The notes under the pieces: generated by a model
Told to the model about the DNA's origin: nothing
Database searches by the model: none
The model's input: the letters and a program-made list of their open reading frames with translations, nothing else
Translations under genes and position numbers: made by a program
Shown here: positions 1,621-56,200 of the stretch, in pieces
How the letters are laid out: the number at the start of each line of letters is the position of its first letter
Numbering within the stretch: position 1 is the first letter of the stretch
Assembly: GCA_044892525.1 (NCBI GenBank)
Contig: CM097885.1
Span: forward strand, 36,272,001 to 36,336,000
Source: Schmidtea polychroa
Taxonomy: Eukaryota
Reading direction: 5' to 3'
DNA length: 64,000 nucleotides

Positions 1621-2264
1621 ATTATTAGTAGTATGTAGTAAGGACTCCAGGACACTTTCAAGGTCATCCCAATGTCCAGATCAAATATAAGTCAATCGAA
1701 TCATTTTATTTATTTATTTTTTTTTTATTTATCTAATTACTTCTATTTAATTTTTTTTTTTTTAAATTTATTAATTAATTATTTTATTATGTTTTTTGTT
1801 TTAATTAATTACTTTAGTTAATTTTCAATTTATTACATTTAATTAATTAATTATTTATTAATATTTTATTTTAATTACTTACTTTATTTAATTGATTTTT
1901 TTTTTAATTTTTTTTTATTTATTTATTTATTTTTTTTTATTTATTATTATTATTATTTTTTTTTTATTGTTATTATTTTACATTTACATTTAATATATTC
2001 TAACAAGAGTGTAAATTGTAACTATAATATTTCAATTTGAATAAAGTTTTAATAATCATAAAATAAAGCTGTGTTAATTTAAAATAAAATGGGCATTAAT
2101 TTTTCAAAACAAAGCAAAGTTTTTCATGATAAATAATAATTCTTACTTAAAACTAATTATCTAAATTAATTGGACAAATGAATTATTAAATGATAAAACA
2201 TATTTTAATTAACGAAGTCAAATAATTCACAATATATATTTTATTATTCACATAAATTTAATTG

Positions 2265-4979
2265 TTAAAGTGCTTGTTTCGATTTGCATTCATTTCTAGA
2301 CATAGCAGTTGCAATATGCATTTGACGAATCTTATAGTGACCGTAGGCATAGCTTTCATTAGAATTGAACCAATACCTTTTATCATCCAAACATTGGAGA
2401 GCTCGTTTTTCTGTAATGAAAGTATACAACTGATGATTAACACTTCCTATTCTCTTTTGTTGGATGCTCACTGTTCCACCATCAGTATACACTTTTTTAT
2501 AGGCTTCATGGGTGATATTAGAATTTGTAAGACTTATTCCTTTGGCTTTTAGAGTGTTTTTATCGCCTTGGAGTGAGTAGCACTTGGGTCGAAGAAACAC
2601 CCATTCTTTATATTGATTTCCTTTATTCTCATCCTTAACTTTCCCGATTACCGAACAAATTTTATCTGAGAACAATGGATCAGTCACTGGATAATTTGAA
2701 GTATCTAGGAGCCCATCGGCAATCATTTTTGGATACAGTTGTAAGCGTAAATCAACATTTTTACACTCTAAAAAGAAGGAATCTGTGTCACCAGCTACGA
2801 TATTAATTTGACAATTGAATTCTTCTCTATAACTCTGTAGTTCTTTATATTGAAACTGGTACATGCGAAGTTTAGATAAATCAAGTACGGTTTGTCCAAT
2901 ATACATTGGTCTATCTAAACACACCATTTCCTTATCAAGTATAACAGCAATGAGATCATCCGCAATCTTGATGCTACGACGAAACATAGGATGACTACAA
3001 TAAGTTATCAATCTTTTGCTTTTGTTGCATAATCTCAAATTTATACGTTTCTTCAAGTTTTCCACAGTTTTACCGTATAAACTGTTGTTCTTTAACTTAT
3101 AATAATCTCGCTGAAACGAATCCGTACTAGCTGCTCTCATTTTGGTATTGTAATCAATATATCCTTTGAAAATAGCCACTTGCTTGAATTCTACAGCACG
3201 ATTAACTTTTGTGACTTTTGCGCCGTAACTCAGCCACTCTGTCAAAACTCTACCATTAACTACATAGTTTTTCTTAGGCTCATGAGTTAACAACAGCTTT
3301 TCAACTTTACTACCAGGCGGATAACAAAGCTCAGGAGCTATAGGTAAATCATCTAGTTTATCTTGTATACTATCAGGAATGACGATGTTAACCTCTAGAA
3401 CATATCCACGATCTCCATCAAACTCATCCCCATTTGCACATCTTTCAACAATACCGTTCATTTCAGTCTGATCATTTATCCATCTAAATTCACCAACAGG
3501 AAGTTTTTGCGACAGCGCCCATCCATATAAATTATTAACATCTAGGTATGACATTTGTGTTGATTCATCAGCTTCAACATGATGTTTGTTGATAAATGTC
3601 ATTCCACCACGAATACCAGCTTCAAATAAACGGTAAAACTCTGGATCTTGAATAAGTTCTACCGGTTCAGGTAACTGTTTAATAGCTGATGCCCAACTTA
3701 ATCCGGGTATGGAAACAAACGATAGAGCCTCAAGTCCATCTTCGTCAAATGTTTTTTCTCTGAAAGCTTCAAAAACATCGGCCAACAGAAAAACATCCAG
3801 CTTGAGATATACTAGCATGTAATCTAGCAGTGTCTCACAGTTGTATTGTTGCCAGATTCGATTTGCATGTATATAATCTTCTTGACTAACTCCCTCCCAA
3901 ATCGGTGGTAATTCTGTTATTGACTGTAAAACATCCATTGATGTAGCCATATCATAAGGAAAAATAGTTTTACAAGTCATCATCTGCGATTCGAAAACAT
4001 CTGAGGTCAGTGGAAGACATGGTAAATTTTTTGATAAATTTGCCAAGCTGCTATTTAAAAATTGTAAAGAATCAATGAATCTAATTCTTCTGCCTTTCAA
4101 TGTCGCTGTAAGTGTGAGAAACTTTTCTGTTGATTGAGGAATAACATTTAAATTCCAATCGGGGAATTTTCCAATTGCATATTTTAATATATGATGAATG
4201 TCATATCCACGAAGATTATGAAATACAACAGGTAAAGACGGATTGATTCTTCTAGCCAAATTACAATCTTGACACGCTGCTCCGAGATATTGACCAGTAA
4301 AATGATCATGATCTCGAACAGGTATATTGATAATCTTTTTACAAAGGTAGCAATGAGTTTGAGTCGTGAATTCTTCCTGCTGTTCCCAAGTGAGTTCCAT
4401 CATTTCCTTTGATCCATTAATTTTATACCACGGATAAACTATGTCTGTAGCTATATCATCCAATGCTTGTATGAACTGAATGATACAGTTTTCCCCAACA
4501 AATGTTTCATTTCGGATCGGACAACCTTGATGAAGAAGCACAAATTCAGATGCAATCGGCTCATGTTTTTGGAAGTGTTTGTCATCTAGAGGTAATATCG
4601 ATTCAAAGTCCGCGTAGACAACAAACTGCTGTTTTATAGTTTTACTCCAGTCTTTAAATTCGATATATTTATTCTCTGGCATTGAGTATAGAGTCGTCCG
4701 CTCCACATTCTTCCTACAAAGACCTATATGTCTTTCAAAAGCAGGACGCTTTCGAAACCCATGAAGACATGTATGACACCATTGTGATTGGATTCTGACT
4801 CCTTCTACTCTATCTCTGTAATTCAGCAGTCGATCGAGATTGGTTACAGCCAAAAAATGATAATTTAATTCTAAAATTTAGTTAATATTTTTAATGATTA
4901 AAAGAAATATTACCTTCTTCAATCAATAGGAGATATATCTGAGATCCCGTCGAAGTACTTCTATATACCAAGTCAACGA
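2265..4979 (-). CDS. Protein-primed family B DNA polymerase (Polinton type), left-arm copy; 5'-truncated; exons 4979-4914 and 4870-2265
   Basis: 862-aa ORF with exonuclease motifs YADFES, FHNLRGYD and YLKLDV, an endonuclease VII-like insert (CYLC...DHDH.TG...AC..CN), and polymerase motifs DVNNLYG, KLKNNSLYGK, GDTDS, PKCYS and KAKGI. A 43-nt GT-AG intron (4913-4871) joins upstream YLLLIEE to ELNYHFLAV in frame. Confidence 0.93.
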
Positions 4980-5032
4980 ATATACAATGTAAATAAACTT
5001 ACAAGATACATGTATTATGTCTGATAATTTAG

Positions 5033-7308
5033 TTAAAATCTGCTTATATAGCATACTGGCCGTATTACATTATGATGACATACTTCGGGATAGAGAAAGA
5101 ACAACAAAATATAACTTAAGTGGTAATATATATATTTATAAATGTCATAAATCATTGAAATTTGTTTTTAAGACTTAAAATGGAAATTTGAATGGTTTCC
5201 GATGAAGTTGGTTAACATTTGCCAATTTGAAGCAATGAATCCAAATCTAGCGATCAATGTTCTCAAATATAATAAAGATCCAATTAAACAAAAAACTAAT
5301 GATATTTTCAAGAATCCGATCGTTGACTTGGTATATAGAAGTACTTCGACGGGATCTCAGATATATCTCCTATTGATTGAATTTATTAAAATATGCAATT
5401 GGAAAATTCCCCGATTGGAATTTAAATGTTATTCCTCAATCAACAGAAAAGTTTCTCACACTTACAGCGACATTGAAAGGCAGAAGAATTAGATTCATTG
5501 ATTCTTTACAATTTTTAAATAGCAGCTTGACAAATTTATCAAAAAATTTACCATGTCTTCCACTGACCTCAGATGTTTTCGAATCGCAGATGATGACTTG
5601 TAAAACTATTTTTCCTTATGATATGGCTACATCAATGGATGTTTTACAGTCAATAACAGAATTACCACCGATTTGGGAGGGAGTTAGTCAAGAAGATTAT
5701 ATACATGCAAATCGAATCTGGCAACAATACAACTGTGAGACACTGCTAGATTACATGCTAGTATATCTCAAGCTGGATGTTTTTCTGTTGGCCGATGTTT
5801 TTGAAGCTTTCAGAGAAAAAACATTTGACGAAGATGGACTTGAGGCTCTATCGTTTGTTTCCATACCCGGATTAAGTTGGGCATCAGCTATTAAACAGTT
5901 ACCTGAACCGGTAGAACTTATTCAAGATCCAGAGTTTTACCGTTTATTTGAAGCTGGTATTCGTGGTGGAATGACATTTATCAACAAACATCATGTTGAA
6001 GCTGATGAATCAACACAAATGTCATACCTAGATGTTAATAATTTATATGGATGGGCGCTGTCGCAAAAACTTCCTGTTGGTGAATTTAGATGGATAAATG
6101 ATCAGACTGAAATGAACGGTATTGTTGAAAGATGTGCAAATGGGGATGAGTTTGATGGAGATCGTGGATATGTTCTAGAGGTTAACATCGTCATTCCTGA
6201 TAGTATACAAGATAAACTAGATGATTTACCTATAGCTCCTGAGCTTTGTTATCCGCCTGGTAGTAAAGTTGAAAAGCTGTTGTTAACTCATGAGCCTAAG
6301 AAAAACTATGTAGTTAATGGTAGAGTTTTGACAGAGTGGCTGAGTTACGGCGCAAAAGTCACAAAAGTTAATCGTGCTGTAGAATTCAAGCAAGTGGCTA
6401 TTTTCAAAGGATATATTGATTACAATACCAAAATGAGAGCAGCTAGTACGGATTCGTTTCAGCGAGATTATTATAAGTTAAAGAACAACAGTTTATACGG
6501 TAAAACTGTGGAAAACTTGAAGAAACGTATAAATTTGAGATTATGCAACAAAAGCAAAAGATTGATAACTTATTGTAGTCATCCTATGTTTCGTCGTAGC
6601 ATCAAGATTGCGGATGATCTCATTGCTGTTATACTTGATAAGGAAATGGTGTGTTTAGATAGACCAATGTATATTGGACAAACCGTACTTGATTTATCTA
6701 AACTTCGCATGTACCAGTTTCAATATAAAGAACTACAGAGTTATAGAGAAGAATTCAATTGTCAAATTAATATCGTAGCTGGTGACACAGATTCCTTCTT
6801 TTTAGAGTGTAAAAATGTTGATTTACGCTTACAACTGTATCCAAAAATGATTGCCGATGGGCTCCTAGATACTTCAAATTATCCAGTGACTGATCCATTG
6901 TTCTCAGATAAAATTTGTTCGGTAATCGGGAAAGTTAAGGATGAGAATAAAGGAAATCAATATAAAGAATGGGTGTTTCTTCGACCCAAGTGCTACTCAC
7001 TCCAAGGCGATAAAAACACTCTAAAAGCCAAAGGAATAAGTCTTACAAATTCTAATATCACCCATGAAGCCTATAAAAAAGTGTATACTGATGGTGGAAC
7101 AGTGAGCATCCAACAAAAGAGAATAGGAAGTGTTAATCATCAGTTGTATACTTTCATTACAGAAAAACGAGCTCTCCAATGTTTGGATGATAAAAGGTAT
7201 TGGTTCAATTCTAATGAAAGCTATGCCTACGGTCACTATAAGATTCGTCAAATGCATATTGCAACTGCTATGTCTAGAAATGAATGCAAATCGAAACAAG
7301 CACTTTAA
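5033..7308 (+). pseudogene. Protein-primed family B DNA polymerase, right-arm inverted copy with internal deletion of about 730 bp and a frameshift
   Basis: 5384-7308 mirrors 4189-2265, and the translations are identical except one A>T. Upstream 5041-5381 encodes N-terminal pPolB-like sequence (CLYSILAVLH...FPMKLVNICQFEAMNPNLAINV...YLLLIE) with a 50-nt GT-AG intron at 5123-5172. Sequence equivalent to 4190-4917 (Zn finger, exo I, endo VII insert, exo II) is missing. Confidence 0.9.
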
Positions 7309-8123
7309 CAATTAAATTTATGTGAATAATAAAATATATATTGTGAATTATTTGACTTCGTTAATTAAAATATGTTTTATCATTTAATAATTCATTTGTC
7401 CAATTAATTTAGATAATTAGTTTTAAGTAAGAATTATTATTTATCATGAAAAACTTTGCTTTGTTTTGAAAAATTAATGCCCATTTTATTTTAAATTAAC
7501 ACAGCTTTATTTTATGATGATTAAAACTTTATTCAAATTGAAATATTATAGTTACAATTTACACTCTTGTTAGAATATATTAAATGTAAATGTAAAATAA
7601 TAACAATAAAAAAAATAAAGAAATAAATAAAGAAATAAATAAAAAAAAAATAATAATAATAATAATAAATAAAAAAAAAAAAATTAAATTAAAAAAAAAT
7701 TTTAAAGAAAAAATAATAATAATAATAATAATAATTAGTTTAATAATTAATTAAAAAAAAATCAATTAAATAACGTAAGTAATTAAAATAAAATATTAAT
7801 AAATAATTAATTAATTAAATGTAATATATTGAAAATTAACTAAAGTAATTAATTAAAACAAAAAACATAATAAAATAATTAATTATTAAATTAAAAAAAA
7901 AATTAAATAGAATTAAATAAATTTAAAAAAAAAATAAATAAAATATTTCGATTGACCTATATTTGATCTTGATATTCCATGACCTTGAAAGTGCGCTGGA
8001 GTCCTTACTACATACTACTATTATTCTTATATTTTCAAGTTGGCAGATTTTTCGTATGCGCTATTTTTCTCTTAACTTTGTTGATTGAAACTTCTTGCGC
8101 TCCTTTGATTTATTATATATGTT

Positions 8124-12103: not shown

Positions 12104-18402
<6,299 letters not shown>

Positions 18403-21619: not shown

Positions 21620-24600
21620 AAAGCAAGTATAACAAAATCAAGAAACGCAAGAAGTTGCAATCACATACACAGTTAAGAGAAATATCACATTCGAAAAATC
21701 TGCCAACAAGGAAATAAAATAATAATAAATAAAATAATTGATAATAAATTAATTAATAATATGAAAAGAAATTTTTAGAAGGATTATTGATCGTATTTAC
21801 CTACAAAATACCATAATCGAATTAATTAGGGATGTTATGGCTTGTATTTACACACTAAGAAGCTATGGCAATGAGCGTATACTTTAAGAAAAGGAAAAGG
21901 AAAAGGAAAAGGAAAAGGAAAAGGAAAAGGAAAAGGAAAATTTATTTAAAAAATTAAATGAAATAAAATAAAGAAATAAATAAATTGAAACTAAAGATTT
22001 CTATTAACATGGATAAAATAATAAAATTTAAAATAAAATTAGTTAAAAATTATTTAGATTATAAAATTTATAAAATTAAATTGTTAAAACTAATAAAAAT
22101 TAAATAAATTGATTCATTAAATCAATTGGATTAAAACAATTTTCGGTGTCGTTGTAACCTAATCTCAATTTTCGGTCTATGCCATTGTGTTAAGCTTAAA
22201 TTGGATTTGGTAATTTTATGTAATGTTATGAGTTAATAAAACTTTATATGCAATTTAGTTTAGTTAATTTTTTTTCTTTTGTTTTTTTAATCGGATGATT
22301 TTAAGTTTTAAATTTTGAGGAATATTTACAGTTTGTATGAACGTTATTTTATTCGATTTTATTTGGGAGTTAGTGCAAATAGATTTTGAAAGTGTTCCAT
22401 TGATGCTAAGTCGGATGCTGGATAGCTCTACGAACTTGGTTGAGTGGATCCCTTCGGATGACCACCTCCGACAGGGTTCGTCACTGCACCTTTTTATGAA
22501 TTTTACTGAGTTAGGAGCGATAATATAGAAAGGTTAGATCGTTTATAAGTATAAAAGGTTCAGTTTGGGGTAATGTTATTGAATCACGAGGAAATTTGAA
22601 TCAGTTTGGCACAGAGTTAGAAATACAGGCAGATACCTGCTCAAAATAATTGAGGAATAAGTCGAATTTCATCTAATATTGTCGGAGGTATAGAACAACA
22701 TTTAATTACCGGGAAATAGAGGCGGATCCCTGCTCAAAATTTTGAAAATAACCTTGGAAAACATCCAGAAAAGAGGACCACAATTAAATGAATAAAGGGC
22801 AATGATCTAACACAAGAATTGGTAGAAAACAATAACGTAAGACCTTCTATCAGCAGTCCAGAATCCAAAAATGAAAATACAATGAGGAGTAATTTAGGAA
22901 ATGTAGATCACCTGCTCATTAATTTTTAACCATTGTATACAGCACCAACATGGTCGTCACCATGGCTACACAGATGGTCTAAACTTTAGACTCTAAAGTA
23001 TAATACAGTAAAACCTCTACTTAAGACCACCTCCCTAAAGAGACCACCTCTAGTTAAGACCTCTATTTCTTCGGAACCAAATTTACACAGTAGTTTACTG
23101 GGACAAATAACCCTCCATAATAGGACCACCCCTCTCGTTAAGACCACTTTTCGTAAAAACTATTTTTAGTTTAAATATTTTTTGTTTAAATATTTTTTGT
23201 TTAAATATTTTTTTAAAATTAAAATGGGAGTTAAAAAAACGAGAAAGGAGCTTACATTGAGCGAGAAGATGGATGTTATTAAATCTTCTGAGCGAGGAGA
23301 AGGACAGAGACTTATTGCAAGACGATTTTCTTGTAGTAAAACGCAAGTCCACAATATCATTGTTAACAAAGAAGAAATAAAGGAGCTTTGGAACAATAAT
23401 GCAAATAAAAAACTAAAACGACTAACAAATAAGCAGTTTAAACTTATCAATGAGTATGTTCTAGAGTGGTATGAAAACAAAGTGCTGCGAGGCTTTCCTA
23501 TTAACGGAGAGTTGTTGAAAGCATCAGCTAAGAAGATAGCTATTAATCTAAACAACAATGTGTTTAAAGCTAGAAATGGCTAGTTGGAGAAATTCCTCAA
23601 GAGAAACAATATTACTTTGAGGGTTTTATCAGGTGAATCTGCTTCCGTAGAACCATCTGTGCTATCAGATTGGTTTTCGAAAATCCCAGATGTTATTACA
23701 AACTATGAAAAGAAAGATATCTACAACATAGATGAGACTGCTTTATTCTATAAAATGTTGCCAGGGAAATCTTTGGGTCGTGCCAGAGAAAAAACATATG
23801 GAAGTAAAAAATCCAAACAAAGAATAACAATCATGCTTTGTGTTAATATGTTGGGAGAAAAAGAGCCACCGGTCATAATTAATAAATCTTTAAGGCCTAG
23901 GTGCCTCAAAAACATCGATTTCAAGGAATGGTGTACCAAGTTCAATGAGAAGCTTTTAAAAGAAAAGAGAAGAATCCTGATAGTATTGGATAATGCAACG
24001 TGTCATCCTAAAATGGATTTAAGCAATATAAAATTTGCATTTCTTCCTGCAAATACTACCAGCAAATCTCAGCCTTTAGACCAAGGTATAATTAGATCTT
24101 TCAAGCTGGAATATCAAAAAAGAATGCTCTCTTCATTATTGTCGTTTTATGAAACAACTGCCAATGTAGAAGAGTTGTTGAAAAAAATCAATCTCTCTAA
24201 TGTTGTTGAGTTTGTAAAGGAGTCTTGGAATGCTGTTAAGCCGTCAACAGTTGAGAGCTGTTTTAAAAAATGTTGGTTCTGCTCGGATATCACGGTTAAA
24301 CCAGATATTATAACTGAGATCGAACAAGACGTAACAGATTTAGCTAAGAAGCTTGATTTCGACTTTGACCTTAGTGAGCTTGACATTTCTCTTGAACAAA
24401 ACTGTTTTGAGAGTGACTGGGAAGAAAAACTGATTTCTTCTTACACTAGTTTGGATGATGCATCAAGTGAGGTTTCTGAACCAAACGAAGAAGAATCTGA
24501 TTTACCAAAAATTGATTTAAAAACATCTTTATCTTATATTCAGCAGATTAAGAATCTTGGAATGGAACTGGGTGACAATAAATTAGTTGACATAATGTTT

Positions 24601-24900
24601 CAAGCTGAACAAAAGTTGACGAATATGATAGTTTTTGATAACAGTGAAGCCAAATCGAAGAGACAAACAACATTAGATGAGTTTTTATAATAAAATCTTC
24701 AATTTAAGTCTAGTTTTCTTTATAAAAATAAAATCCTCTCTAATAGGACCACCTCTAGTAAAGACCACTTTTGGTCCGGAACCAAGGGTGGTCCTATTAG
24801 AGAGGTTTCACTGTAGTCATGAAGGCGTTTAGGAATGGTTCGATTCAAAATTCATAAATACCTTTAACACATTTAAAAAATGACACCTCTAAGCGATCAA
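21620..24900. repeat. Unclassified long interspersed repeat (copy 3, inverted), interrupted by a Tigger at 23006-24813
   Basis: 21631-21760 is the reverse complement of about 20520-20640. 22830-23003 plus 24816-24860 is the reverse complement of about 350-545. Includes a (GGAAAA)n tract at 21887-21938. Confidence 0.75.
23006..24813 (+). mobile_element. Tigger/pogo DNA transposon with disrupted transposase (23224-24690)
   Basis: TIRs CAGTAAAACCTCT / AGAGGTTTCACTG with TA duplication (23004-5, 24814-5). HTH-psq/CENP-B and DDE_1 motifs (YNIDET, LDNATCH, QPLDQG). In-frame TAG at 23581 replaces the conserved W, and the usual segment before EWC appears deleted. Confidence 0.93.
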
Positions 24901-35000: not shown

Positions 35001-38000
35001 ACCTTCTTACCCTCCCATTCTGTTCCTATATATGAAAGAAAAATTCAGGCAAAATATGAACACAATTGAACAATATTTAGGGGTAGCTCAAGGACAGAGA
35101 AGTTTCTGATACTCTTAAGCAGCGGCCGCCCATTTATTTACGGTACTTTACTATAGTAACTGAGAACTAAGTAAATTGAGACTTTCTCAGACTCTGATAA
35201 TCATACAACATTTCAATCCTATTTTTACAATATACAATTAACACAAATTCTTCATAGTCCAGGCATGATCAGACTTGTTTAGTATGTTTACTGTGTGGAC
35301 TGGCTATTGCAGGAGTTTGACAAATGTGTTTATAAATTTAAATTGTAAACAGTTGATAACACTACTATTAAAGTGAGCATTAAATTGCTGGTAGGCCACT
35401 GAAGTGAAGCAAGCCTTCCTGAATCTATAGCTGCTGGTAAGTTAGTTGAATGTTATTTGAATATTGAATATTATTTTCAATGTTTAAGTGTGAATAGTAA
35501 TTAAATGAAGATATAGATTAGTTAGATAAGTAAATGTGAATTTTGTAATACAATTATTCAAATTAACATATCAATCCATGATTCCAAAGTCAATGCTATT
35601 TTTATAATATTCATTTCAGATTCATTTCTGTAAGAAAATGTCATCAGTTGCAAAAGCAACACGATCTCAAACTGAGTTGTATCTTCTTGGCGATTCCGTG
35701 ACTCAGTTACGTGGCAGCAAGCTGCCATCTTTACGTATGGCTCTTGGACTCTTCCTACATCACCATCTGAAACTGAAAGAGACAATAAGACAATCATCGG
35801 CTGTTACCATTACAGAAGTATCGAAGTTTTGGCAGAAAGCGAGGATCCCGATGAGAGATCATCAAAACTGCCAAACCAAGGTTGAGCATGCATTTGAAGA
35901 ATGGCGTCTTCTGAAAAAGAACAAGGCACGATTATCAGCAACTCAACTAGCGAGAGAATCAGCTTTTAGTTCCAAGCTCGAAGATCTCTTTGATCTTGCT
36001 CATGCTGATGCACTGACCAGCCCCTCGGTACTACAGGAAGATAAAAATTTCTTGTTAGCCCAGAGAGAAAAAGGAAGAAGGGGGTCGATGACTGGTGCAG
36101 ATGAAAAACTTGCTGCTAAGAAGAAAAGATCATTTGAACGAGATGAGCAAATGCTTGCGAGGCGACAGCGAATGGAGCAAGTGAAGCAGTTAGCAGCTTC
36201 TACCGCTGAACTGATATCGTCATCTTCTGAAACCAGCTTAGATGGTGGAAACATGAAAAGTGGAGAAAATCTGAGTGATGATGCTGCAGGAGGCAGCACA
36301 TTTCGGACGCCAAAAAGAGGGGGCGAAAAACTGTTATTACTCCAGAACTTGCAGTAGCTTTAGATAGAACTAAAGTGTCAGATCGCAAGGCTGTTTTCGT
36401 TATTGCAGAAACTGCTAAAAGCCTGGGACAGAACATCGATGAACTTGCTCTAAACAGAGACTCGATTCGACGACTTAGGGTAGAACATCGAGTTCAGAGA
36501 GCTGCCAACATAAAAGCAAAGTTCCAGGATAATGTACCACTTGTAGTTCATTGGGACGGCAAACTGATTCCTGATCTGATTGGAAAGGAGAAGGTTGATC
36601 GACTGCCGGTTTTGGTTTCTGGAAAAGGAGTATCTCAGCTACTTACAGTTGCTAAGCTTCCATCTGGAACAGGCGAAGCTCAGGCTGCTGCTGTATATGA
36701 AGCCATCAAAGACTGGGGCATAGCCAAGAGTATCCGAGCTATGTGTTTTGACACTACTAGCTCAAATACTGGTCGGATTGCTGGTGCTTGTGTACTGTTA
36801 GAGCAGAAGCTTCAGTAGGAGTTGTTATCACTGGCTTGTAGGCACCACATTATGGAACTGATAATTGGGGCAGTTTTCCAGGTCTGCATGGGAGCCTCAT
36901 CCTCCCCAGAAGTTGCACTCTTCAAACGCTTTCAAGAGTTCTGGAGATTTATAGATACGGCTAAGTATGAAGCAGGCACTACAGCTGATGACGTAGCAAG
37001 TTTACTGGAGGATATAAAGCAAGACACCGTCGATTATGCCAACAAGTATCTTGAACAGAGTCAGCCGAGAAATGACTATAAAGAATTCTTGGAACTTGTA
37101 ATTGTCTTCCTCGGTGCTGCTCCTCCCAGAGGTGTACGGTTCATGGCACCTGGTGCAATGCACCATGCTCGTTGGATGTCCAAGGTGATATACAGCCTAA
37201 AAATTTGGATGTTCAAGGCGCAGTTCAAGCTGACTACTGCAGAAGAGCGAGGGTTGCGTGATGTTTGTGTATTTGCAGTACGAGTGTACCTGAAAGCTTG
37301 GATATCTGCACCTCAAGCAGCAGGTGCTCCATTCAGTGACTTGCTGCTGCTGAAGTCGCTGCTCGAGTACTCATCAATACATGCAGCCATTTCAAAGGCA
37401 ACATCTCGCAAGTTTGCAAATCATTTGTGGTACTTATCTGAGAAACTGGTAAGCTTGACTTTTTTCGACAGTCGGGTCAGTTCGTCAACCAAACGACTGA
37501 TGGTGAGTGCCATGCAAAATGATGAAAACCAGGATTCTGATCATTGCAGACGTATCACAGTTGCTCTTGGTTCATTCAAAGAGAAAAACTTGGAAGATTT
37601 TGTCACAGCTAAATCAATGATTCTGCTTCAACAGCTTGAACTGCCAGATGGATTTCTTGCAGTTGACCCAGGCTTGTGGGGAGACAGAGATGATTACAAA
37701 CAAGCTGCAGAAACAGTTACATCTCTAAAAGTTGTAAATGACCATGCTGAGCGTGGAGTGGCCCTCATTCAGGAATACAGTGGATTAATCACCCGTGATG
37801 AAACACAACTTCAATTCTTGCTGCAAGTTGTCCAGGACCATCGCAAAATGTATCCCGACAGCAGGAAAAAGACTCTGTCCGCCATCTCTGGGTTTACATA
37901 ATAACAGTTAATTTCAAGTTTGCTGGACATTTACAGATTGTTTGTGTCAGAAGCTAAAGAAACATTTCACTATTAATGTCTATGTGTGTAACACTGAAGT

Positions 38001-38394
38001 TTGCAAAAAAATAAAATAGAATCAGAATTTGTTGAATTTACAAAAATTTTATCATATTTCAGGCACTTGAGCTACCTCTAAACATAAAAATTTATTGCTT
38101 AAACTTTTTATACAGTGTTTCTATACCATAAGGAACAGATTAGGGGGGTAAGACTTTCAAAAATTTTTTTTTTATTTTTTAAGCTCCACCCTAGTGAAAA
38201 TCAAAAAAAAAGAATTAACAGTTAATAACTTCAATGTTACTGTAGGAACATAAGACTAATTGGTAAAATATATTGATCATTATTGATTTATTCAATTTCT
38301 TCATAGGTAGATCGAGTAGATTTGAGCAGTCTCCATCGCTTTTCATCTCTCGATACGCTCCGCGTACTTCGACAGGGGTTATTGTAATGCGTTT

Positions 38395-38476
<82 letters not shown>

Positions 38477-40971
38477 TAGAGCCTCGAGTTGCGTTGTCCC
38501 AACTTGCGTCCTTTCGAGTTGCGCCAAAAAATTTTCGATACCATAATTTTGAGTTGCGTTGCTAATTTTCGAAATGCGTCGAAAAAAAGTTTTAAAATAA
38601 AATTTAATCAAAAAATAGCATAACGTCTATATTCAAAAATTAAACTTTAAACCGAAACTAGAATGCCATGATTTATTTTTAAATGCAGCTGCAAATGAAA
38701 TAATTTTTTATTGTGTATTTATTAGTATAAAAGTCTAGTTCTTAGTTGTTTGCATAACTTATAACTCATAACGTTTAAGTGTTTCTTGCTTTTTTAATAA
38801 TAATTGTTTTAAATTCTAAAAACTCAATTACAATATATATACATTTCTCAAAGGTATTACATTTTGTTTATTGTTTTTTATTATTTTTTTGGTTTGTAAT
38901 TGATTTTTTGAAATATTTTTTATTGCCCTATTGTAGAATAGAATTATGAATCGTAAACGATCGTCAGATTAAAATGGTGAAAAATCTACGAAAAGAAATA
39001 AAAAAGTAATATCTTTGGACGTAAAACATGATATTTTACAACGTTTCCAAGCGGGAGAAAAAGCGGTTTTCATTGGCAGAGCTCTCGGGCTAGCTCCAAC
39101 GACAATAAGAACTATCTGCAATCGCGATGCAAAACAAATCAAAACATTATATGAAGCAGCAACAGATTCCCAATTAAAAAGTACTGTTATAAATCGAAAT
39201 GCATTAATAGTTAAAATGGAATCTCTACTTTTAATTTGGATTGAACATCAAACTCAAAAAAGTATGCCGCCGAGCAAAATGGTTATTCAAGCCAAAGCCA
39301 AATCTTTTTACGATGATCTGCAAGAAAAACTTCCAATATCGAATAAAGCAATTTATGAACAATTTAACGCTAGTGGTGGATGGTTTGAGCGTTTTAAATT
39401 TCGCGGAAATCTGCACAACATTTGTTTGAAAGGTGAGGCAGCTAGTGCAGATCTCACAGCAGCAAATGATTTTAATAAAATATTGAAGGCTGTTATACAG
39501 GAAGGTGGCTACAGTTCTAAACAGGTTTAATATTGATGAAACAGGTTTGTTTTGGAAACGTCTGCCGAAAAGAACCTATATAGCAAAAACAGAATCTTCT
39601 GCACCTGGTTTTAAAGTAAGTAAAGATCGCCTAACTATACTTCTTGGAGGCAATGCCAATGGTGACTTCAAACTAAAACCATTGTTAGTTTATCAGACTG
39701 AGAATCCTAGAGCTCTAAAAGGTGTTGATAAAAGAAATCTTCCTGTGCATTGGCGATCTAATAAAAAAGCTTGGGTCACTGTTTCTTTGTTTGTTGATTG
39801 GTTGGTCAAATGCGCCATTCCTGAGTTCAAAAACTATTGCAAACGGGAAAATTTAACTTTTAAAATATTGGTACTACTGGATAATGCACCGGGACATCCA
39901 AAATATATAGATGATCTATCAGATAATGTAAAATTTTTATTTATGCCTCCAAACACAACTTCACTTATTCAACCAATGGATCAAGGAGTAATCTCAAATT
40001 TTAAGTCATACTATATTCGCCGGACATTTAAACAGCTACTGCATGCTGCCGATGCAAATGAAGAAACTTCTATGGCTGTATTTTGGAAAAACTACAATGT
40101 ATTGAAAGCTGTTAAAAATATTGGTGATTCTTGGGCAGAAGTAAAATCCTCTTGTATGAATGGTGTATGGCAAAAAATATGGCCAGAATGTACAGCAACT
40201 TTTACGGAAGTTGACGATGTGCCATTAGTTCGGGCAGAAATAGTTAACTTAGCCCAAGAAGCTCATTTCGAAGGATTGGACGAGGCCGATTTCGATGAAA
40301 TTTTAAATGTAGAAGAGGATTTTAATGTTAGTACCGCAGATTTAATTGAAATGGCTCAAAATATTTATGAGAATGACGACAATTCCGTAGAAGTACCAGA
40401 AGTGAAACAATTAACAACAAAGGATATGGGGAAAGCAATTAAATTAATATCTGAGGCATTAGAAATATTTGTTGCAGAAGATCCAGATACTGATCAAAGT
40501 ATAAAGGTTACTCAAGCTGTAGAGGCCTCCATCAGCTGTTATAAAAATATTTATTTGGATAAAAAACAAAAGGCAGTTCAAATAACTCTGAATAATTTTA
40601 TAATAAAACAACCAAAAGAAAAGCAAACGCCAAGTCCTGAACCAACTTATGAATAAGAATCTGAATAAATTCTATAAATTTATGTTGCTTCATTATTTTA
40701 CATTATTTTAAAATTCTATTAATGTTTGCATTAGTTTTTGGTTTAATAAAACTTATTAAATAATAGTTAATCTATTCATACCTATTTTTTATTTAAATAT
40801 GTAGCAATATAACTAATTTTTATTTAAAAACATGGATTTCAGATTTTATCGGAACCTATTATATAAAAACAAATACATATGTCTACAAAATTAAAATTCG
40901 AATTGCGTTGTTTCGAGATGCGTCGCGATTTATTGGAACGCATTAACGACGCAACTCGAGGCTCTTGTATA

Positions 40972-50218: not shown

Positions 50219-53200
50219 ATGTCGTTTGATAAAGAAGAATTAATCCAACAGTTAAATCATTATGTTATCGGTGAAGAAGACAAAAACTTTATTTATGGAA
50301 CAGCTGGATTTCGAACTGCAGCAACTCGATTAGTTGGAATTGCATTTCGAATAGGTATTATGGCTGTTCTAAGATCTATGCAAGAGGTTTATCGTTACGA
50401 TTGAAATATGAGATAAAATGTATTCAGATGGGTATGGTAATTGGTATCATGGTTACTGCTTCACACAATGAGGCTAGTGATAATGGGTTAAAGGTTGTTG
50501 ATAAAGGCGGCGAAATGTTGGATGAGTCATGGGAAGAAATAGCAGTGCAATTTATTCGAACTCATGTTGACGACGTTCCAGATTTTATAAATGCAATTTG
50601 TATTAATAGAAATATTGATATTTCCATTAGAGGTAATAAATTTTTATTTATTTTGATTCTTTTATCTATTTTACATTTTTTAATTGCATATAGTGATTGT
50701 AAAAAACTTTCTCGCAGAGCTCCATATTAGTGATAATTTTGGTGATGTTAACGTGTTCTTTTAAATTGCTAATATTCTCGATAATTGTGAACTTTCAAGT
50801 CAATCATAAATTTTTTTTAATTTCAATAAAATAAACATTTACACTATGAAATTTTTCTAATTTTGTATCATTATTTATGATCAAAAGTCAACAATCAACA
50901 AAAACTGAAATCTTCAAATCGGTTAGAAAATTTTCTCGAGGAATTTATTCTACAGTTCATCCGAGTATTTCTGTCCGATCTTTTTGTATTTTCATTCTAA
51001 TCGCTGTTTGCATATTTGTCGGAAAAAATAATAATCTGGCAAATGATGTTTATTAAACCTTTAAGTAAAAATAAAAATACTTTTCTGGTGAAATCCGAAA
51101 TTCATTGTAAAATGTATAATGCAAGGTCTTTTTCATATAATTCCACTTTGAAACAATTACAATTGTTTAAACTCAATCTTGAATGTTCTCGAACTCGTTT
51201 ACAAGGACGGTGGCAATTTTGAAATCGTTTTAACATTGACACTTTAAATATTTTAGGGAGTTTACATGTTCGACTGGAGGGGAATGGTGGATTTTTTTGA
51301 AGGCGCTGAACTTTTTGGTGTGTCTGGTAGTGTTGTCGGTTGTTCCATGTCTTCTAATATGTCTTCGTTTATGTTATAGTCTTTTGTAATATGGCTGTTT
51401 GGGATTTCATCGTATTCAAGGGTGCAAAACGCTGGTTTAAATCTGTAAAGGTTGATCATGACGTGGTTGTTGTCAATCTCGAGTTTCGCTGTATTTTTGT
51501 ACAGCTCTATGATGCGAAACGGACCTTTGAATCTGGGTTTGAGGTTTGAAGAGTCGATAGTTCTCATCCATTGTGAGTTGCTGAGGAAAGGAACTGTGGT
51601 ATATATGGTTTGTACGACGTGGAATATGTGAACGACGGATTTGTATCTAAGCTCAAAAAATTCGTACGTGTTAGATTGATCTCGTCTAATGGTGAGTTAT
51701 TGTAAAGATGTTCGTTGGGCATGAAAGTGTTGTATCCAAACAAAGGTTTTGAAGGAGACACGTCGCTTGAATGATTGGGTTGTTGTGCCATCCTAGTAAA
51801 ACAAATGATAGGTGTGTTATCTGACGGTGTGCCCTGTTTGATGGGTCTTTCATGGAGAAGCAGTGGATAAGAGGTTTGTGATCAGTGAAGACTGTGAATT
51901 GTCTACCTTCTAAAATGTGACATCTAGAAAAATAGCAAGTAATTCTCTGTTGAATGCAATGTACTTTGACTCTGCCTATGAAAATTTTCTAGAGAAAAAT
52001 TTTATTTGGAGTAAAATTTTGTCTTTAATTTGATGAAGGACTGCGGCGGCGGCGATATTTGATGCATCTGTTGTGAGGGTGAATAGGCGGTCATGACTCG
52101 GGTAGTGAAGAGTTGTAATCTTGGATAGAGCGTCTTTGACTGTGTTGAATGTGTCACGTGTTGTGTCGGACTAGTTAATGGTGGAGTTTTTCTTTCCTTT
52201 GTTCAGTGCTGAAAGAGGTGCCGTTATGTGTAATGCATTTTTTATGAATCTGTGACAGAAATTGACGATGCCCAAAAAGCTACGTAGTTGTGTTAAGGTG
52301 GCGAGTAATGGACAGCTGCGGATTACGTCAAGTTGTTCAGGAAAAGGTTCGCAACCCATAGATGAGAGTATGTGACCAAGGAATCTGACGTGTTTTTGAA
52401 AGAATTTGCATTTATTTACATTGATCTGTAAGCTATAACGGTTCAATATGTCAAGAACAGTGTGTAGGTCTTTGTTGTGGGTGTCGCGGTAGGGTGATGC
52501 TACGATTATATCGTCGAAGTATGCAAAAGCGTGGTGGACGTCCCGGAAAATTGTGTCTATGAAGAGTTTTAAAGACTGAGTTGCATTCCTTAAGCTGAAA
52601 GGCATGAACATGTATTCGAAATTTCCAAATGGTGTGGTTACAGCGGTTTTGGGAACGTCATCGATATGGACAGGAAATTGATTGTAGGCTTTCGAGAGGT
52701 CAATAGTTGAAAATATGGTTGATTGTGAAAGGCGGGTTATTAAATCTTTGATAAGTGGCATTGGGTATGTATCGTGAACGGTCACTTGATTGAGTTGACG
52801 TTAGTCGCCGCACGGACTGAGGCAATCGTCTTTCTTGATGATTACATGTATTGGTGAATTCGGCTTTTACTGCGTCGAGTTTGATGGGTGGGAGGGGTCT
52901 GGCTCGGTTGTGTTGTGGTATCCACGGTAATGTCGGAATATAATGAATCGATAGAGTTGTAGGTGGTATGATAGGGGATTTTGTGATGAGGTTTGGGTAT
53001 GTGGTTGAGATTGTCTCGATTATTTCGTACATTGGCTCTGAATTAGGTGAGTGTTGGATATCTGACATGTGAATATTGCGTTCCATCGTGTCAGTAGATT
53101 GGATAAAGCTAAGTTGGGTCGTTGGAGATGTCTGCGTAGAGATTGATGTTCTGTTTGGTGATACATTTATGGATATAGGATTGAGATGTCGGTTTATAGT

Positions 53201-56200
53201 GAATAGTCGTCTATTTCTGCAGTCTATCATGAGGAATTGTTCGCTGAGGAAATCGGAGCCTAGTATTGGAAGAATTGTGTCTGCTATGTGGAAGTTGTGA
53301 GTGAAAGTTCAGTTCAGTGTCGGTAGCTTGAATAAAAGTTTTTTTATTCCCAAAAATTGTATCGGTGTGTCGTTGGCTGCCAATACGGTGAAAGGAGATT
53401 TGAGATCTGGGGTTATAGTGGTTAGGAATTTTCGAAAATGATGATCCGGAGTTGACGAGGAAGTGAATTGATGAGCTCGAATTAAATGTTGCTTCAACGG
53501 TAAGGATGTTGTTGATCGCGAAGGCACCGCCTGAAAATCCAGGGTTTACAGACGGTGAAGTTAGTTTTAGGGGGATTGAAGTAGTCTTTGTCGTATTATG
53601 GTTTGTTTGAGTGACGATTCACAAAAGTGCAGCCTGGAAGGCATTTTTGTTCGTGTAACCCGAAGAGGTTGTGGTAAATGCAGGTGGGAATAAATTGATA
53701 TTTTTATGACAGAAAAGTTAAAACTCGTTGCAGAACTATCTGATCCTGCATGGTTATGGGATCTAGCCTTTTTAACAGATATAACCGAACATCTCAATAT
53801 CCTCAATTTAAAATTGCAAGGCAAAGGTAAACTTATACATGAACTATTTATTGATGTCAAATCTTTCAGATCAAGATTGAAATTTTTTAAAAGGCAATTT
53901 CGACAAAATAATTTCACACATTTTCAATCTTGTGAATATTTATGGAATAATGGATCAAAAGATAAGAATAGTTTTTCTATTAATAGAAGTATCGACAATA
54001 TTGCATTGCTTCAAAATGAATTTAACAAAAGATTTTCTGATTTCTTTTGGAATGAAACAATATTTACTTTGTTCCAAAATCCTTTTGAAGTAAACGTGGA
54101 TGACATGGATCCCAATTTACAATTAGAATTAATTGATTTGCAATCAAACGATACAGTGAAATCACTCTTTAAAATTGAAAACATAAGCACATTTTATTCA
54201 CTTTTGCTGGAAAATACTTTCAGCAATATTAAAAATTTTCCCATGAAAATAATTTCAATATTTGGAAGTACCTATATCTGCGAGCAAGCCTTTTCACGAA
54301 TGAAATATATAAAATCAAAATTACGATCAAGACTGACGGATGACCATTTGAAGGATTTTTTAAAAATAAGCGTATCTAATTTCAAAGCAAATATAAATAA
54401 TTTCATTGAAAGATCAAACAATCAGGCTCATTGTTCACATTAATTTTTTTTAATAATAATATATGTCTTAACTTTTTTTTGTAGTTTTTTATGTGCGAAT
54501 ATTTTAAATAAAACATAATTTTTCTTAAATTGATTTATATTTCTTTATAATATAACAACGGTGGGCAAATGCGGCTCTTGGAGCCGCATGCGGCTCTTCG
54601 TTGAGTAAACTGCGGCTCATTGATAATTGAATTCTTGATAATCGAATTCGATTTTTTATTTTGAAATTTTTCACTAAATGTTTTGAGAAAAAATTTTTTG
54701 TTGCAATTGTATTTTCATAAATGTCAAAACTTAACGAAACATTGTTTTTCACATTTTACTGCTTTTTAAAATTATTTTGTAGTAGGCGGCGCTTTGTTAT
54801 AACAACGAGAGAGAAGCATCAAAAATAAATTTAGTGAATTTTGATTGGTTATTATTTTGTTTGTTCAAGATTGCGGTCGTTTGTATATTTTAGTATAGTT
54901 TTCTATTCGTGTTTTTTGAAAAATTTGGTAAGAAGATTTTTTTATGAAGCATTTTAAAATTTTAAACTAATTCAAATTAAATTAATGTCTTTTATTTATT
55001 TTGTTTAAATTTCAGCCATATAGTTATTTAAATTTATTATTATAATGACATCAGAAAACATCAAAAAACGAAAATACAGACAAGAAAATAGAACTTTTCA
55101 AGAAGAATGGACAGAAAAGTTTTTTTATTGACAATAATGGTAAATCGTTGTGTCTTATTTGTAAAGGTACAATTTCCAACTACAAAGTAACCAATTTACG
55201 TCGACACTATGAAGTAAGTCATCCACACTTATCAATTCAATATCCACTCAATTCAAACTTGCGGACAGAAAAACTTAAGTCATTGCAATCAGGGCTTCAA
55301 GCCCAACAAGGACTATTATCTACTTTTAGTCGAGAAGATGACAGTGCCAACGAAGCTAGTTTTTTGATAGCTTGGAATATAGCTCGTGCTAAACGTCCAT
55401 ATGGAAAAGGTGAATTTATTAAGAGAAACTTGGAAGAAGTGATTAAAGTTTTGGATCCGGACAACTCAAAACTACATAAATTAATCTCACGTATTCCTAT
55501 TTCACGTCGTACAACTGAGCGTCGAATTGGCCAAATTAGCGAAAATGTTGAAAATAATTTGATGTGTGATTTAAAAAATTGTACAGCATTCAGTTTAGCT
55601 CTCGACGAGTCTACTGACATTCAGGATGTTCCACAATTAGCCGTTTTTGTCTACATTTGCATTTTTTGTGAACCCATTTATTTGTGATATTATTGAAGAT
55701 GGATTTCCAATTTCTGAAGTAATACTTGTTAAAAAAGCGGTTGGGGAATTGGAGTTATTAGATATGAAAGAGGACCAGGCTTTGCAAATGCACCATAAAT
55801 CTACTTCTATAGTTGAATTTTGGAAACTCGTACCAGAGGCAAAATATCCACACTTAAAACAAGCTGCTTGCCGTCTAATTTCAATTTTTGGTACAACATA
55901 TTGTTGTGAATCTTTGTACTCCACAATGAAGTTCGTAAATTCGAAATATCGTTCACAGTTGACCAATCAGCATCTTACAGAATTGCTGCGAACAGCTTTA
56001 ACAAAGTATACACCAAATTTCAAAGATTTGACCAAAAGTCTTCGTTAATTCAAGAAATTTTATTACTTTTTATTAATGGATTTTTATGTTTGTTACTTAA
56101 TGTTTGAAATAATTATTTTGTTTTTTTTTAATAGCGTTTTAGTCTCTTTAATCAAATTAATGAAATAAAAAAAAATATGTACTTTACTATGGTGGCTCTG

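What the first reader, a model, noticed from the sequence alone, without database searches (positions are those of the whole stretch)
1627..8019. A palindromic mini-Polinton: an integrated 6.4-kb element made of two inverted pPolB arms and nothing else
Seen: Polinton-type termini, a perfect 6-bp TSD, and two inverted arms (about 1970-4189 vs 5384-7603, plus 4918-4979 vs 5320-5381) around a 340-bp single-copy spacer that simply continues the right-arm gene. No integrase, ATPase, protease or capsid ORFs. Known: autonomous Polintons are typically 15-25 kb, carry one pPolB, and make 6-bp TSDs with their own retroviral-like integrase. Inference: this is a fold-back or defective-interfering-like replicon. 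Either it kept only the cis-acting ends and was integrated in trans by a helper, or it was rearranged in place after integration. It may represent a family of satellite elements parasitising full Polintons.
Basis: partly seen in the sequence, partly recalled or inferred. Interest (0 to 1): 0.9.

Follow-up and report, generated by a model that had tools for sequence, protein, structure and literature searches.

The report
Polymerase-only palindromic Maverick satellite family
This 6.4-kb mirror-image stretch is a dead, cut-down copy of an abundant 12-14.5-kb mobile element that carries only its own DNA polymerase gene, twice, and seems to borrow its insertion enzyme from virus-like Maverick transposons in the same animal genome.

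Summary
The structure is real: ends at 1627 and 8019, a 6-bp TSD, arms identical at 2218 of 2220 bases, and no integrase or virion genes. It is not a one-off fold-back of an ordinary Polinton. It is a thrice-deleted, dead copy of a family in this genome (597 exact matches of one polymerase 22-mer). Long copies are 11.9-14.5-kb palindromes: end, spliced pPolB, promoter, repeat-rich centre, then the mirror image. 12 of 15 other two-ended copies have their own perfect 6-bp TSD. Variants shared between copies show purifying selection on pPolB (pN/pS about 0.18). This polymerase is only 54-57% identical to those of the capsid-bearing Mavericks read here. Best reading (0.75): a replicase-only satellite that copies itself with its own polymerase and is integrated in trans by a co-resident Maverick integrase. 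Copy-private, near-neutral mutations sit in both arms, which suggests arm-to-arm conversion after insertion. Polymerase-less Mavericks with integrase and capsid genes also occur, but most Mavericks read carry their own polymerase. The window's three junctions are unique and not confirmed by reads. My literature searches found no such element; this scan earlier noted gene-less palindromic Maverick satellites here and in another genome.

The parts
1621..1626 (+). Left copy of the 6-bp target-site duplication (ATTATT)
1627..1969 (+). Left terminal segment, 5'-AGTAGT end of terminus subtype A, then AT-rich
1970..4189 (-). Left arm of the palindrome (3' part of pPolB and its downstream region); 2218 of 2220 bases match the right arm
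2265..4870 (-). Last exon of pPolB, left arm; uninterrupted frame (870 codons stop to stop, to 4877); PF03175 and endonuclease-VII-like domain
4190..4917 (-). Part of pPolB present only in the left arm, because the right arm lost it
4871..4913 (-). 43-nt GT-AG intron (third intron of the family's pPolB); a loose end that fits the spliced form is in run X9
4918..4979 (-). 62-bp pPolB piece present in both arms (partner 5320-5381)
4980..5040 (-). Further upstream pPolB piece in left-arm orientation, after a 385-450-bp deletion at about 4980
5040..5044 (.). Strand-switch junction: centre of the parent palindrome, both promoters and both 5' gene ends are missing
5044..5381 (+). Upstream pPolB piece in right-arm orientation, with a 50-nt GT-AG intron at 5123-5172 that a contig of run X9 skips
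5381..5384 (+). Junction of a 726-bp deletion in the right-arm pPolB
5384..7603 (+). Right arm; truncated pPolB frame of 643 codons (5377-7308)
7604..8019 (-). Right terminal segment, ACTACT-3' end of terminus subtype B
8020..8025 (+). Right copy of the target-site duplication (ATTATT)
21628..21898 (-). Uninterrupted relative (79-80% identical) of the repeat into which the element inserted; stands in for an empty site

Best explanation
The window holds a dead deletion derivative of a replicase-only, palindromic Maverick-derived element. SHOWN: long copies are 11.9-14.5-kb palindromes (end, pPolB pointing outward, promoter, repeat-rich centre, mirror image) with no integrase or virion genes, inserted at many sites with 6-bp TSDs. 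The pPolB has three short GT-AG introns and is under purifying selection in the lineages that spread. This copy lost its centre, both promoters and two gene pieces, so it cannot make the polymerase. INFERRED: an active copy is spliced and translated, and replicates itself as linear DNA by protein priming from its two AGTAGT ends. The product is inserted by the retroviral-like integrase of a co-resident Maverick. It works like a self-replicating satellite: it keeps replication and borrows integration, and perhaps packaging. After insertion the two arms keep being copied onto each other, and the palindrome decays by deletions that remove its centre or most of one arm.
For: Family size and layout: 597 exact matches of one pPolB 22-mer; of the first 100, 48 form 24 divergent pairs under 10 kb and none a convergent pair. 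Ten long two-armed copies are collinear, with arms 99.0-99.96% identical within a copy. 12 of 15 other copies read at both ends have a perfect 6-bp direct repeat, each a different hexamer. No INT, ATPase, protease or capsid hit in 16 of 17 elements; the one hit is a nested LTR retrotransposon. Selection: variants shared by 2-9 of 10 copies are 53 synonymous to 38 non-synonymous, pN/pS about 0.18, P = 3.5e-15 against neutrality; pairwise ratios between copies 0.14-0.34. 9 of 20 arms keep an uninterrupted last exon. Splicing: one contig of run X9 (RNA only by a guess) skips the 50-nt GT-AG intron, and a loose end fits removal of the 43-nt intron. Helpers exist: a 17.65-kb Maverick with pPolB, INT, ATPase, protease, capsids, an AGTAGT end and a 6-bp TSD, and 1176 exact matches of a 22-mer of its major capsid gene. 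Arm copying: 136 copy-private differences lie in both arms and 32 in one; those in both arms are near neutral (pN/pS about 0.72, P = 0.10) and include stops and indels.
Against: No free linear DNA, terminal protein or trans-integration was observed. The family's ends share only about AGTAGTA with the helpers read; its first 620 bases had no blastn hit in four helper-type elements, so the cognate integrase is not identified. The ten long copies were picked because they showed inverted pairs. 52 of the first 100 matches of the 22-mer are unpaired, and 6 of 8 elements picked by paired ends have only part of a second arm, so a one-armed form could also be mobile. Only the first 49 Mb of contig C1 was checked for a capsid-bearing Maverick with this polymerase (0 of 40 matches). 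The purifying signal could partly predate loss of the other genes. Two of 15 copies have no TSD, one has 5 of 6, and two of the 12 hexamers are self-complementary. No contig in four public runs was seen to bridge this copy's own junctions (tables cut, inconclusive).
Confidence: 0.75

Rival explanations
1. Two-part Maverick: the polymerase-only palindrome and the polymerase-less Mavericks that keep integrase, ATPase, protease and capsid genes are complementary halves of one split element, each supplying what the other lacks.
For: Polymerase-less elements of 14.5 and 15.5 kb with open INT, ATPase, capsid and protease frames exist; the 14.5-kb one has a 6-bp TSD. All 3 such loci read carry a piece of about 120 bp, 78-82% like the palindrome's pPolB promoter region, just inside the end where the polymerase would be; no such hit in five polymerase-bearing Mavericks. 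The centre of one palindrome subtype is built of the polymerase-less family's terminal repeats (79% over 1 kb).
Against: 8 of 12 capsid-module loci read carry their own polymerase and a ninth a remnant, so neither partner needs the other. The ends of polymerase-less elements resemble the autonomous Maverick's (AGTAGTAGGAT) more than the palindrome's. The shared promoter-like piece is also inside a gene-less palindrome, and the sequence behind the protease gene is shared with another inverted-repeat family. Segments of bidnaviruses have matching termini (PMC8502044, passage); these do not.
Confidence: 0.12
2. Defective-interfering fold-back: the palindromes are passive snap-back products of a complete Maverick that supplies both polymerase and integrase, and the pPolB copies are passengers.
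For: The strand switch at 5040/5044 is nearly symmetric (the two halves lie about 125 bp apart in the gene), as a fold-back would be. Snap-back genomes are known in AAV (PMC8235507, abstract). The closest outside relatives with context are complete Mavericks (L172, L174). Copies with broken polymerase in both arms exist.
Against: Purifying selection on shared variants. No parent with this polymerase was found: helper polymerases are 54-57% identical and fall in another starred clade. Long copies share one arm layout and inner boundary rather than random fold-back points.
Confidence: 0.08
3. Local rearrangement or assembly artefact: the second arm arose in place after insertion, or the assembler duplicated or homogenised it.
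For: Near-neutral private mutations are shared by both arms, which collapse during assembly would also give. In two copies the inversion runs on into the flanks. The window's junctions were not seen bridged in public contigs.
Against: Different perfect TSDs around the same layout at many loci; 24 divergent and 0 convergent pairs; arm-private differences and discordant ends are preserved; the flanks join up as one older repeat.
Confidence: 0.05

Closest known systems
Maverick/Polinton elements (Barreat and Katzourakis 2021, PMC8097293; Jeong et al., 10.1101/2023.08.22.554363; passages seen)
   Same: pPolB with an endonuclease-VII/HNH-like insert, (AGT)2 ends, 6-bp TSD; nearest relatives with context are complete Mavericks (52-57% identical polymerase).
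   Different: No integrase, ATPase, protease or capsid genes. Inverted arms of 5-6.7 kb hold the whole gene, against TIRs of 46-1447 bp (vertebrates) or 100-1500 bp. The polymerase has introns, whereas intact vertebrate Mavericks were reported intronless.
Polintons with gene-bearing TIRs and polB-lacking polintons in butterflies (Pannagram preprint, 10.1101/2025.02.07.637071; passages seen)
   Same: TIRs of about 2 kb can hold genes in two copies; polB-less elements stay mobile, as the polymerase-less elements here seem to.
   Different: There the duplicated genes are hexon and protease inside otherwise gene-rich elements; the passages I saw describe no polymerase-only element.
Proposed free replicase modules of Polisuviricotina, and transpovirons as defined there (10.64898/2026.10.13.758929, section 13 read)
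   Same: A replicase that moves without the virion module; the paper suggests that replicases may act as mobile elements of their own.
   Different: [quoted passage not shown] Here pPolB is alone, doubled, and amplified to hundreds of chromosomal copies.
Alphasatellites of plant ssDNA viruses (PMC10868553, start of abstract in a search listing)
   Same: Works like them: encodes only a replication protein, replicates on its own and depends on a helper for the rest.
   Different: They are circular ssDNA with a rolling-circle Rep (recalled); this is a linear-type, integrating, pPolB element. Not a member.
AAV snap-back genomes (PMC8235507, abstract) and sex-chromosome palindromes with arm-to-arm conversion (PMC3723533, start of abstract in a listing)
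   Same: Palindromic genome with one kind of end twice; arms kept alike by copying.
   Different: Snap-back genomes are by-products of each infection, not a lineage under selection; sex-chromosome palindromes are not mobile.
Gene-less palindromic Maverick satellites noted earlier by this scan (e1-7908075, e1-7907779, e1-7882895; unchecked AI notes)
   Same: Giant palindromes of 13-17.5 kb, said to carry Maverick-type ends, two of them in this genome.
   Different: They carry no genes and need helper polymerase; this family carries and maintains its own. One of the two regions I read had no DNA match to this family, the other only the 120-bp promoter-like piece.

Membership tests
Maverick/Polinton (autonomous) | [quoted passage not shown] | tested here: met
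   PF03175, E 1.8e-30; 5514 homologues among 8000 scored. In this copy both genes are truncated.
Maverick/Polinton (autonomous) | Retroviral-like integrase (by definition, PMC5499653 abstract) | tested here: not met
   No hit in the window element or in 15 of 16 other copies; the one hit is a nested LTR element.
Maverick/Polinton (autonomous) | ATPase, protease, major and minor capsid genes | tested here: not met
   No tblastn hit in 17 of 17 elements.
Maverick/Polinton (autonomous) | (AGT)2 end motif and 6-bp TSD | tested here: met
   Window; 12 of 15 other two-ended copies perfect, 1 with 5 of 6, 2 none.
Maverick/Polinton (autonomous) | TIRs of about 0.05-1.5 kb around a 13-25-kb unique body | tested here: not met
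   Arms of 5-6.7 kb around a centre of 0.4-2.6 kb; nine long copies 11.9-14.5 kb.
Defective-interfering or snap-back genome | Replicated by the helper's polymerase; own coding sequence not under selection | tested here: not met
   pN/pS about 0.18 for shared variants. The window copy itself is defective.
Defective-interfering or snap-back genome | A near-identical complete parent in the same host | tested here: inconclusive
   None among 12 capsid-module loci read, and 0 of 40 polymerase matches in Maverick layout over 49 Mb; the genome was not scanned whole.
Transpoviron-like replication-integration module (as worded in 10.64898/2026.10.13.758929) | pPolB together with a DDE transposase, no virion module | tested here: not met
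   No integrase hit and no other long frame in the long copies.
Self-replicating satellite (functional class) | Own replicase maintained; other steps borrowed from a helper | tested here: inconclusive
   Replicase maintained and TSDs without own integrase; helper dependence not shown by experiment.
Self-replicating satellite (functional class) | Free replicating form and packaging in helper particles | not testable with these tools
   Needs DNA from tissue or particles.
Segmented (bidnavirus-like) genome | Matching termini on complementary segments | tested here: not met
   Outer ends of the palindrome had no blastn hit in polymerase-less or autonomous elements.

The most novel reading that the evidence does not exclude
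Mavericks in this genome have split into free modules: a self-replicating, polymerase-only palindrome, and polymerase-less integrase-plus-capsid elements that it complements. The palindromic doubling brings the molecule to helper size (12-14.5 kb against 14.5-17.7 kb) so that it is packaged. The free polymerase module would also be a vehicle for the polymerase swapping seen among the local Mavericks.
Probability: 0.2. Interest if true: 0.9.

Novelty: new variant of a known kind. Interest (0 to 1): 0.72.

Why it matters
Polintons are defined by polymerase plus integrase, and genome surveys filter on that pair (Jeong et al., passage), so a polymerase-only lineage would be missed. Here one has spread to hundreds of sites while its polymerase stayed under selection. 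That is indirect evidence that Maverick replication favours the molecule that encodes the polymerase, while the integrase works in trans on ends that differ beyond the first seven or so bases. How Mavericks replicate and integrate is still largely inferred from sequence (my knowledge). This genome holds complete, polymerase-less, polymerase-only and (per earlier scan notes) gene-less forms side by side, which makes the cis and trans needs testable by comparison. It also warns that arm identity in such elements is no insertion clock.

Tried and rejected
(1) Same 6.4-kb form elsewhere: none; each junction matched in full only here. (2) The PF21738 capsid family in this genome as parent: 126 matches among 126 scored of 2527 candidates; its polymerase is about 26% identical and its ends differ. 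Rejected as parent, not excluded as integrase donor. (3) A 22-mer behind the protease gene as a marker of polymerase-less elements: not specific, since most listed matches are inverted pairs about 3.3 kb apart. (4) An integrase 22-mer as such a marker (694 matches): of 5 linked loci read, 3 have a full polymerase, 1 a remnant, 1 none. This lowered the two-part reading. (5) IMG/VR: no relative with the alignment, one weak hit with P0001, no match to the end motif. (6) Metagenome relatives: 37 loci; none showed a palindrome, but most contigs are under 5 kb, so this says little. (7) Read support for the window's junctions: four runs, all kept as contigs, tables cut; inconclusive. No holder is on record as RNA. 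(8) Arm identity as an age: rejected. (9) The first tree run did not finish; the tree cited is FastTree on 39 rows, midpoint-rooted, with P0006, most lower-ranked homologues and the distant G000 polymerase left out; no clade test was run. (10) My first fetch of the two earlier-noted satellites missed them; refetched. (11) Literature searches that found no polymerase-only or fully palindromic Maverick: (listings; passages read; one section; one abstract). Subscription papers, Repbase and Dfam entries and bioRxiv supplements were not seen and may describe such a family. The host was not determined; one search used a guess at the host group.
Full report
OBSERVATION. The element runs from 1627 to 8019, begins and ends with the (AGT)2 motif and is flanked by ATTATT on both sides. 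The inner arms differ at 2 of 2220 bases. They hold pPolB frames of 870 and 643 codons and nothing like integrase, ATPase, protease or capsid. The flanks are the two halves of one older repeat, and an uninterrupted relative lies at 21628-21898. So this is an insertion, not a join of two loci.

THE FAMILY. The window lies in a 781-Mb genome, G000. One 22-mer of this polymerase occurs exactly at 597 places, with none for the reversed control. Of the first 100, 48 form 24 divergent pairs under 10 kb apart; none is convergent. Extrapolated, that is roughly 450 loci, a lower bound. I read 8 elements chosen by paired ends and 8 chosen by inverted pairs. Ten are long two-armed copies; the nine read at both ends are 11.9-14.5 kb. 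Their layout is end, pPolB pointing outward, promoter region with a doubled CCAAT-type word, repeats of about 140 bp, a centre of 0.4-2.6 kb, and the mirror image. The other six have one near-full arm and 0.3-2.6 kb of the second, each broken at a different point. Of 15 other copies read at both ends, 12 have a perfect 6-bp direct repeat, each a different hexamer (two are self-complementary), one has 5 of 6 and two have none. The window copy maps onto the long form with three losses: 385-450 bp at about 4980, the centre at 5040/5044, and 726 bp at about 5381. Each junction was matched in full only here. It lacks both promoters and both 5' gene ends, so it is dead.

THE POLYMERASE IS MAINTAINED. 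The 5' part of the gene continues the homology to full-length relatives across three short GT-AG introns. One contig of run X9, RNA only by a guess, skips the second intron, and a loose end fits removal of the third. 9 of 20 arms keep an open last exon. Variants shared by 2-9 of 10 copies are 53 synonymous to 38 non-synonymous (pN/pS about 0.18, P = 3.5e-15). Variants private to one copy but present in both its arms are 34 to 95, with stops and indels (about 0.72, P = 0.10 against neutrality; each site was classed singly against the window's frame). So lineages that spread had a working polymerase. Copies then decayed in place while their arms were copied onto each other: 136 private differences lie in both arms, 32 in one. 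Assembly collapse, or trans-replication of defective molecules, could give the same pattern; preserved arm-private differences argue against the first but do not exclude it.

NO PARENT FOUND, BUT HELPERS. The best outside homologues are 61-63% identical; those with context are complete Mavericks (L172, L174). G000 holds a large family with the same gene set, including a 17.65-kb copy with TSD; a capsid 22-mer occurs 1176 times. Of 12 such loci read over the polymerase position, 8 carry a polymerase, 1 a remnant and 3 none (two of the three were not picked at random). All of these polymerases are 54-57% identical to the palindrome's, and the three put in the tree fall in another starred clade (FastTree). 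None of 40 palindrome-type matches in the first 49 Mb of C1 lies in Maverick layout with this capsid gene. A second capsid family is more distant still. The 6-bp TSDs therefore need an integrase from outside; which one is not known, as the ends share only about seven bases.

MECHANISM. Most likely (0.75) this is a replicase-only satellite. Shown: layout, mobility, selection on the polymerase, absence of other genes. Inferred: protein-primed replication from both ends, trans-integration, and arm conversion after insertion. A possible origin, which is inference only: the centres are bounded by inward-facing AGTAG-type motifs, and in one subtype consist of the polymerase-less family's terminal repeats. 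A small element nested upstream of a polymerase gene would offer an inverted repeat at which copying could turn back and duplicate the arm. The window's strand switch is nearly symmetric, as expected for loss of a hairpin centre, though a fresh fold-back would look the same. Its two ends are of different subtypes while the inner arm is closest to subtype A copies (up to 99.4%), so ends are exchanged between subfamilies. The two-part reading (0.12) rests on the polymerase-less elements and a shared 120-bp promoter-like piece. It is weakened because most Mavericks read are complete, the ends do not match, and the piece also lies in a gene-less palindrome.

COMPARISON WITH WHAT IS KNOWN. It fails membership of autonomous Polintons (no integrase, no virion genes, arms far longer than the 46-1447-bp TIRs in PMC8097293; passages seen) but is clearly derived from them. 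Gene-bearing TIRs and polB-less polintons are reported (10.1101/2025.02.07.637071; passages). Free replicase modules are proposed, with pPolB always beside a DDE integrase (10.64898/2026.10.13.758929; section 13 read). It works like an alphasatellite (listing abstracts). Searches found no polymerase-only palindromic element; Repbase, Dfam, subscription papers and preprint supplements were not seen. Earlier notes of this scan describe gene-less palindromic Maverick satellites; none matched this polymerase by sequence or by words. Polymerase motif names and the replication model of Polintons are from my own knowledge.

VERDICT. The window copy is an ordinary dead derivative; the family behind it is the finding. 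New variant of a known kind; interest 0.72.

Noticed in passing
G000:C1:71880724-71895225 (L224-L225), C2:30007004-30022527 (L228-L229), L231: Polymerase-less Mavericks of 14.5-15.5 kb; the two read whole have open integrase, ATPase, capsid, protease and TBP-like frames and are 98.6% identical over the gene block.
   Followed up: partly
G000:C1:165718433-165735219 (L131-L133): A 16.8-kb Maverick of another family with 3.2-kb TIRs (99.9%) that hold the capsid gene twice; TSD TGTAAG.
   Followed up: partly
L215-L223, L230-L234: A near-identical capsid module is paired with several polymerase types (61-79% identical to each other), a sign of polymerase swapping within one genome.
   Followed up: partly
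G000 C1, list: A further inverted-repeat family: a 22-mer with 663 matches, many in inverted pairs about 3.3 kb apart, shares sequence with the region behind the protease gene of polymerase-less Mavericks.
   Followed up: no
L182:1-1200 and L185:1-1210: Metagenome polymerases with apparent introns at the first and third positions and a similar doubled CCAAT-type word upstream; the contigs are too short to show the layout.
   Followed up: partly
L032-L033 and L154-L155: In two copies the inversion continues beyond the element ends into the flanks (at least 340 bp and about 260 bp); L014-L016 share the same flank, so that locus is multiplied.
   Followed up: no
window 1651-1669 and 7978-7990; subterminal regions of L215-L216, L224-L225: The word TCAAGGTCA recurs near the ends of the palindrome and many times in the helper families; it resembles a nuclear-receptor half-site (recalled, not tested).
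   Followed up: no
L039:3581-7557: An LTR retrotransposon (zinc knuckle, RT, RNase H, integrase) nested in a family copy.
   Followed up: yes
window 23584-24687, 35608-40653, 52174-53308, 53694-59337: Long frames that look like DNA-transposon and retrotransposon remnants by eye; no family search was run.
   Followed up: no
window 13715-15327: An AT-rich inverted repeat of about 700 bp per arm, 80% identical.
   Followed up: no
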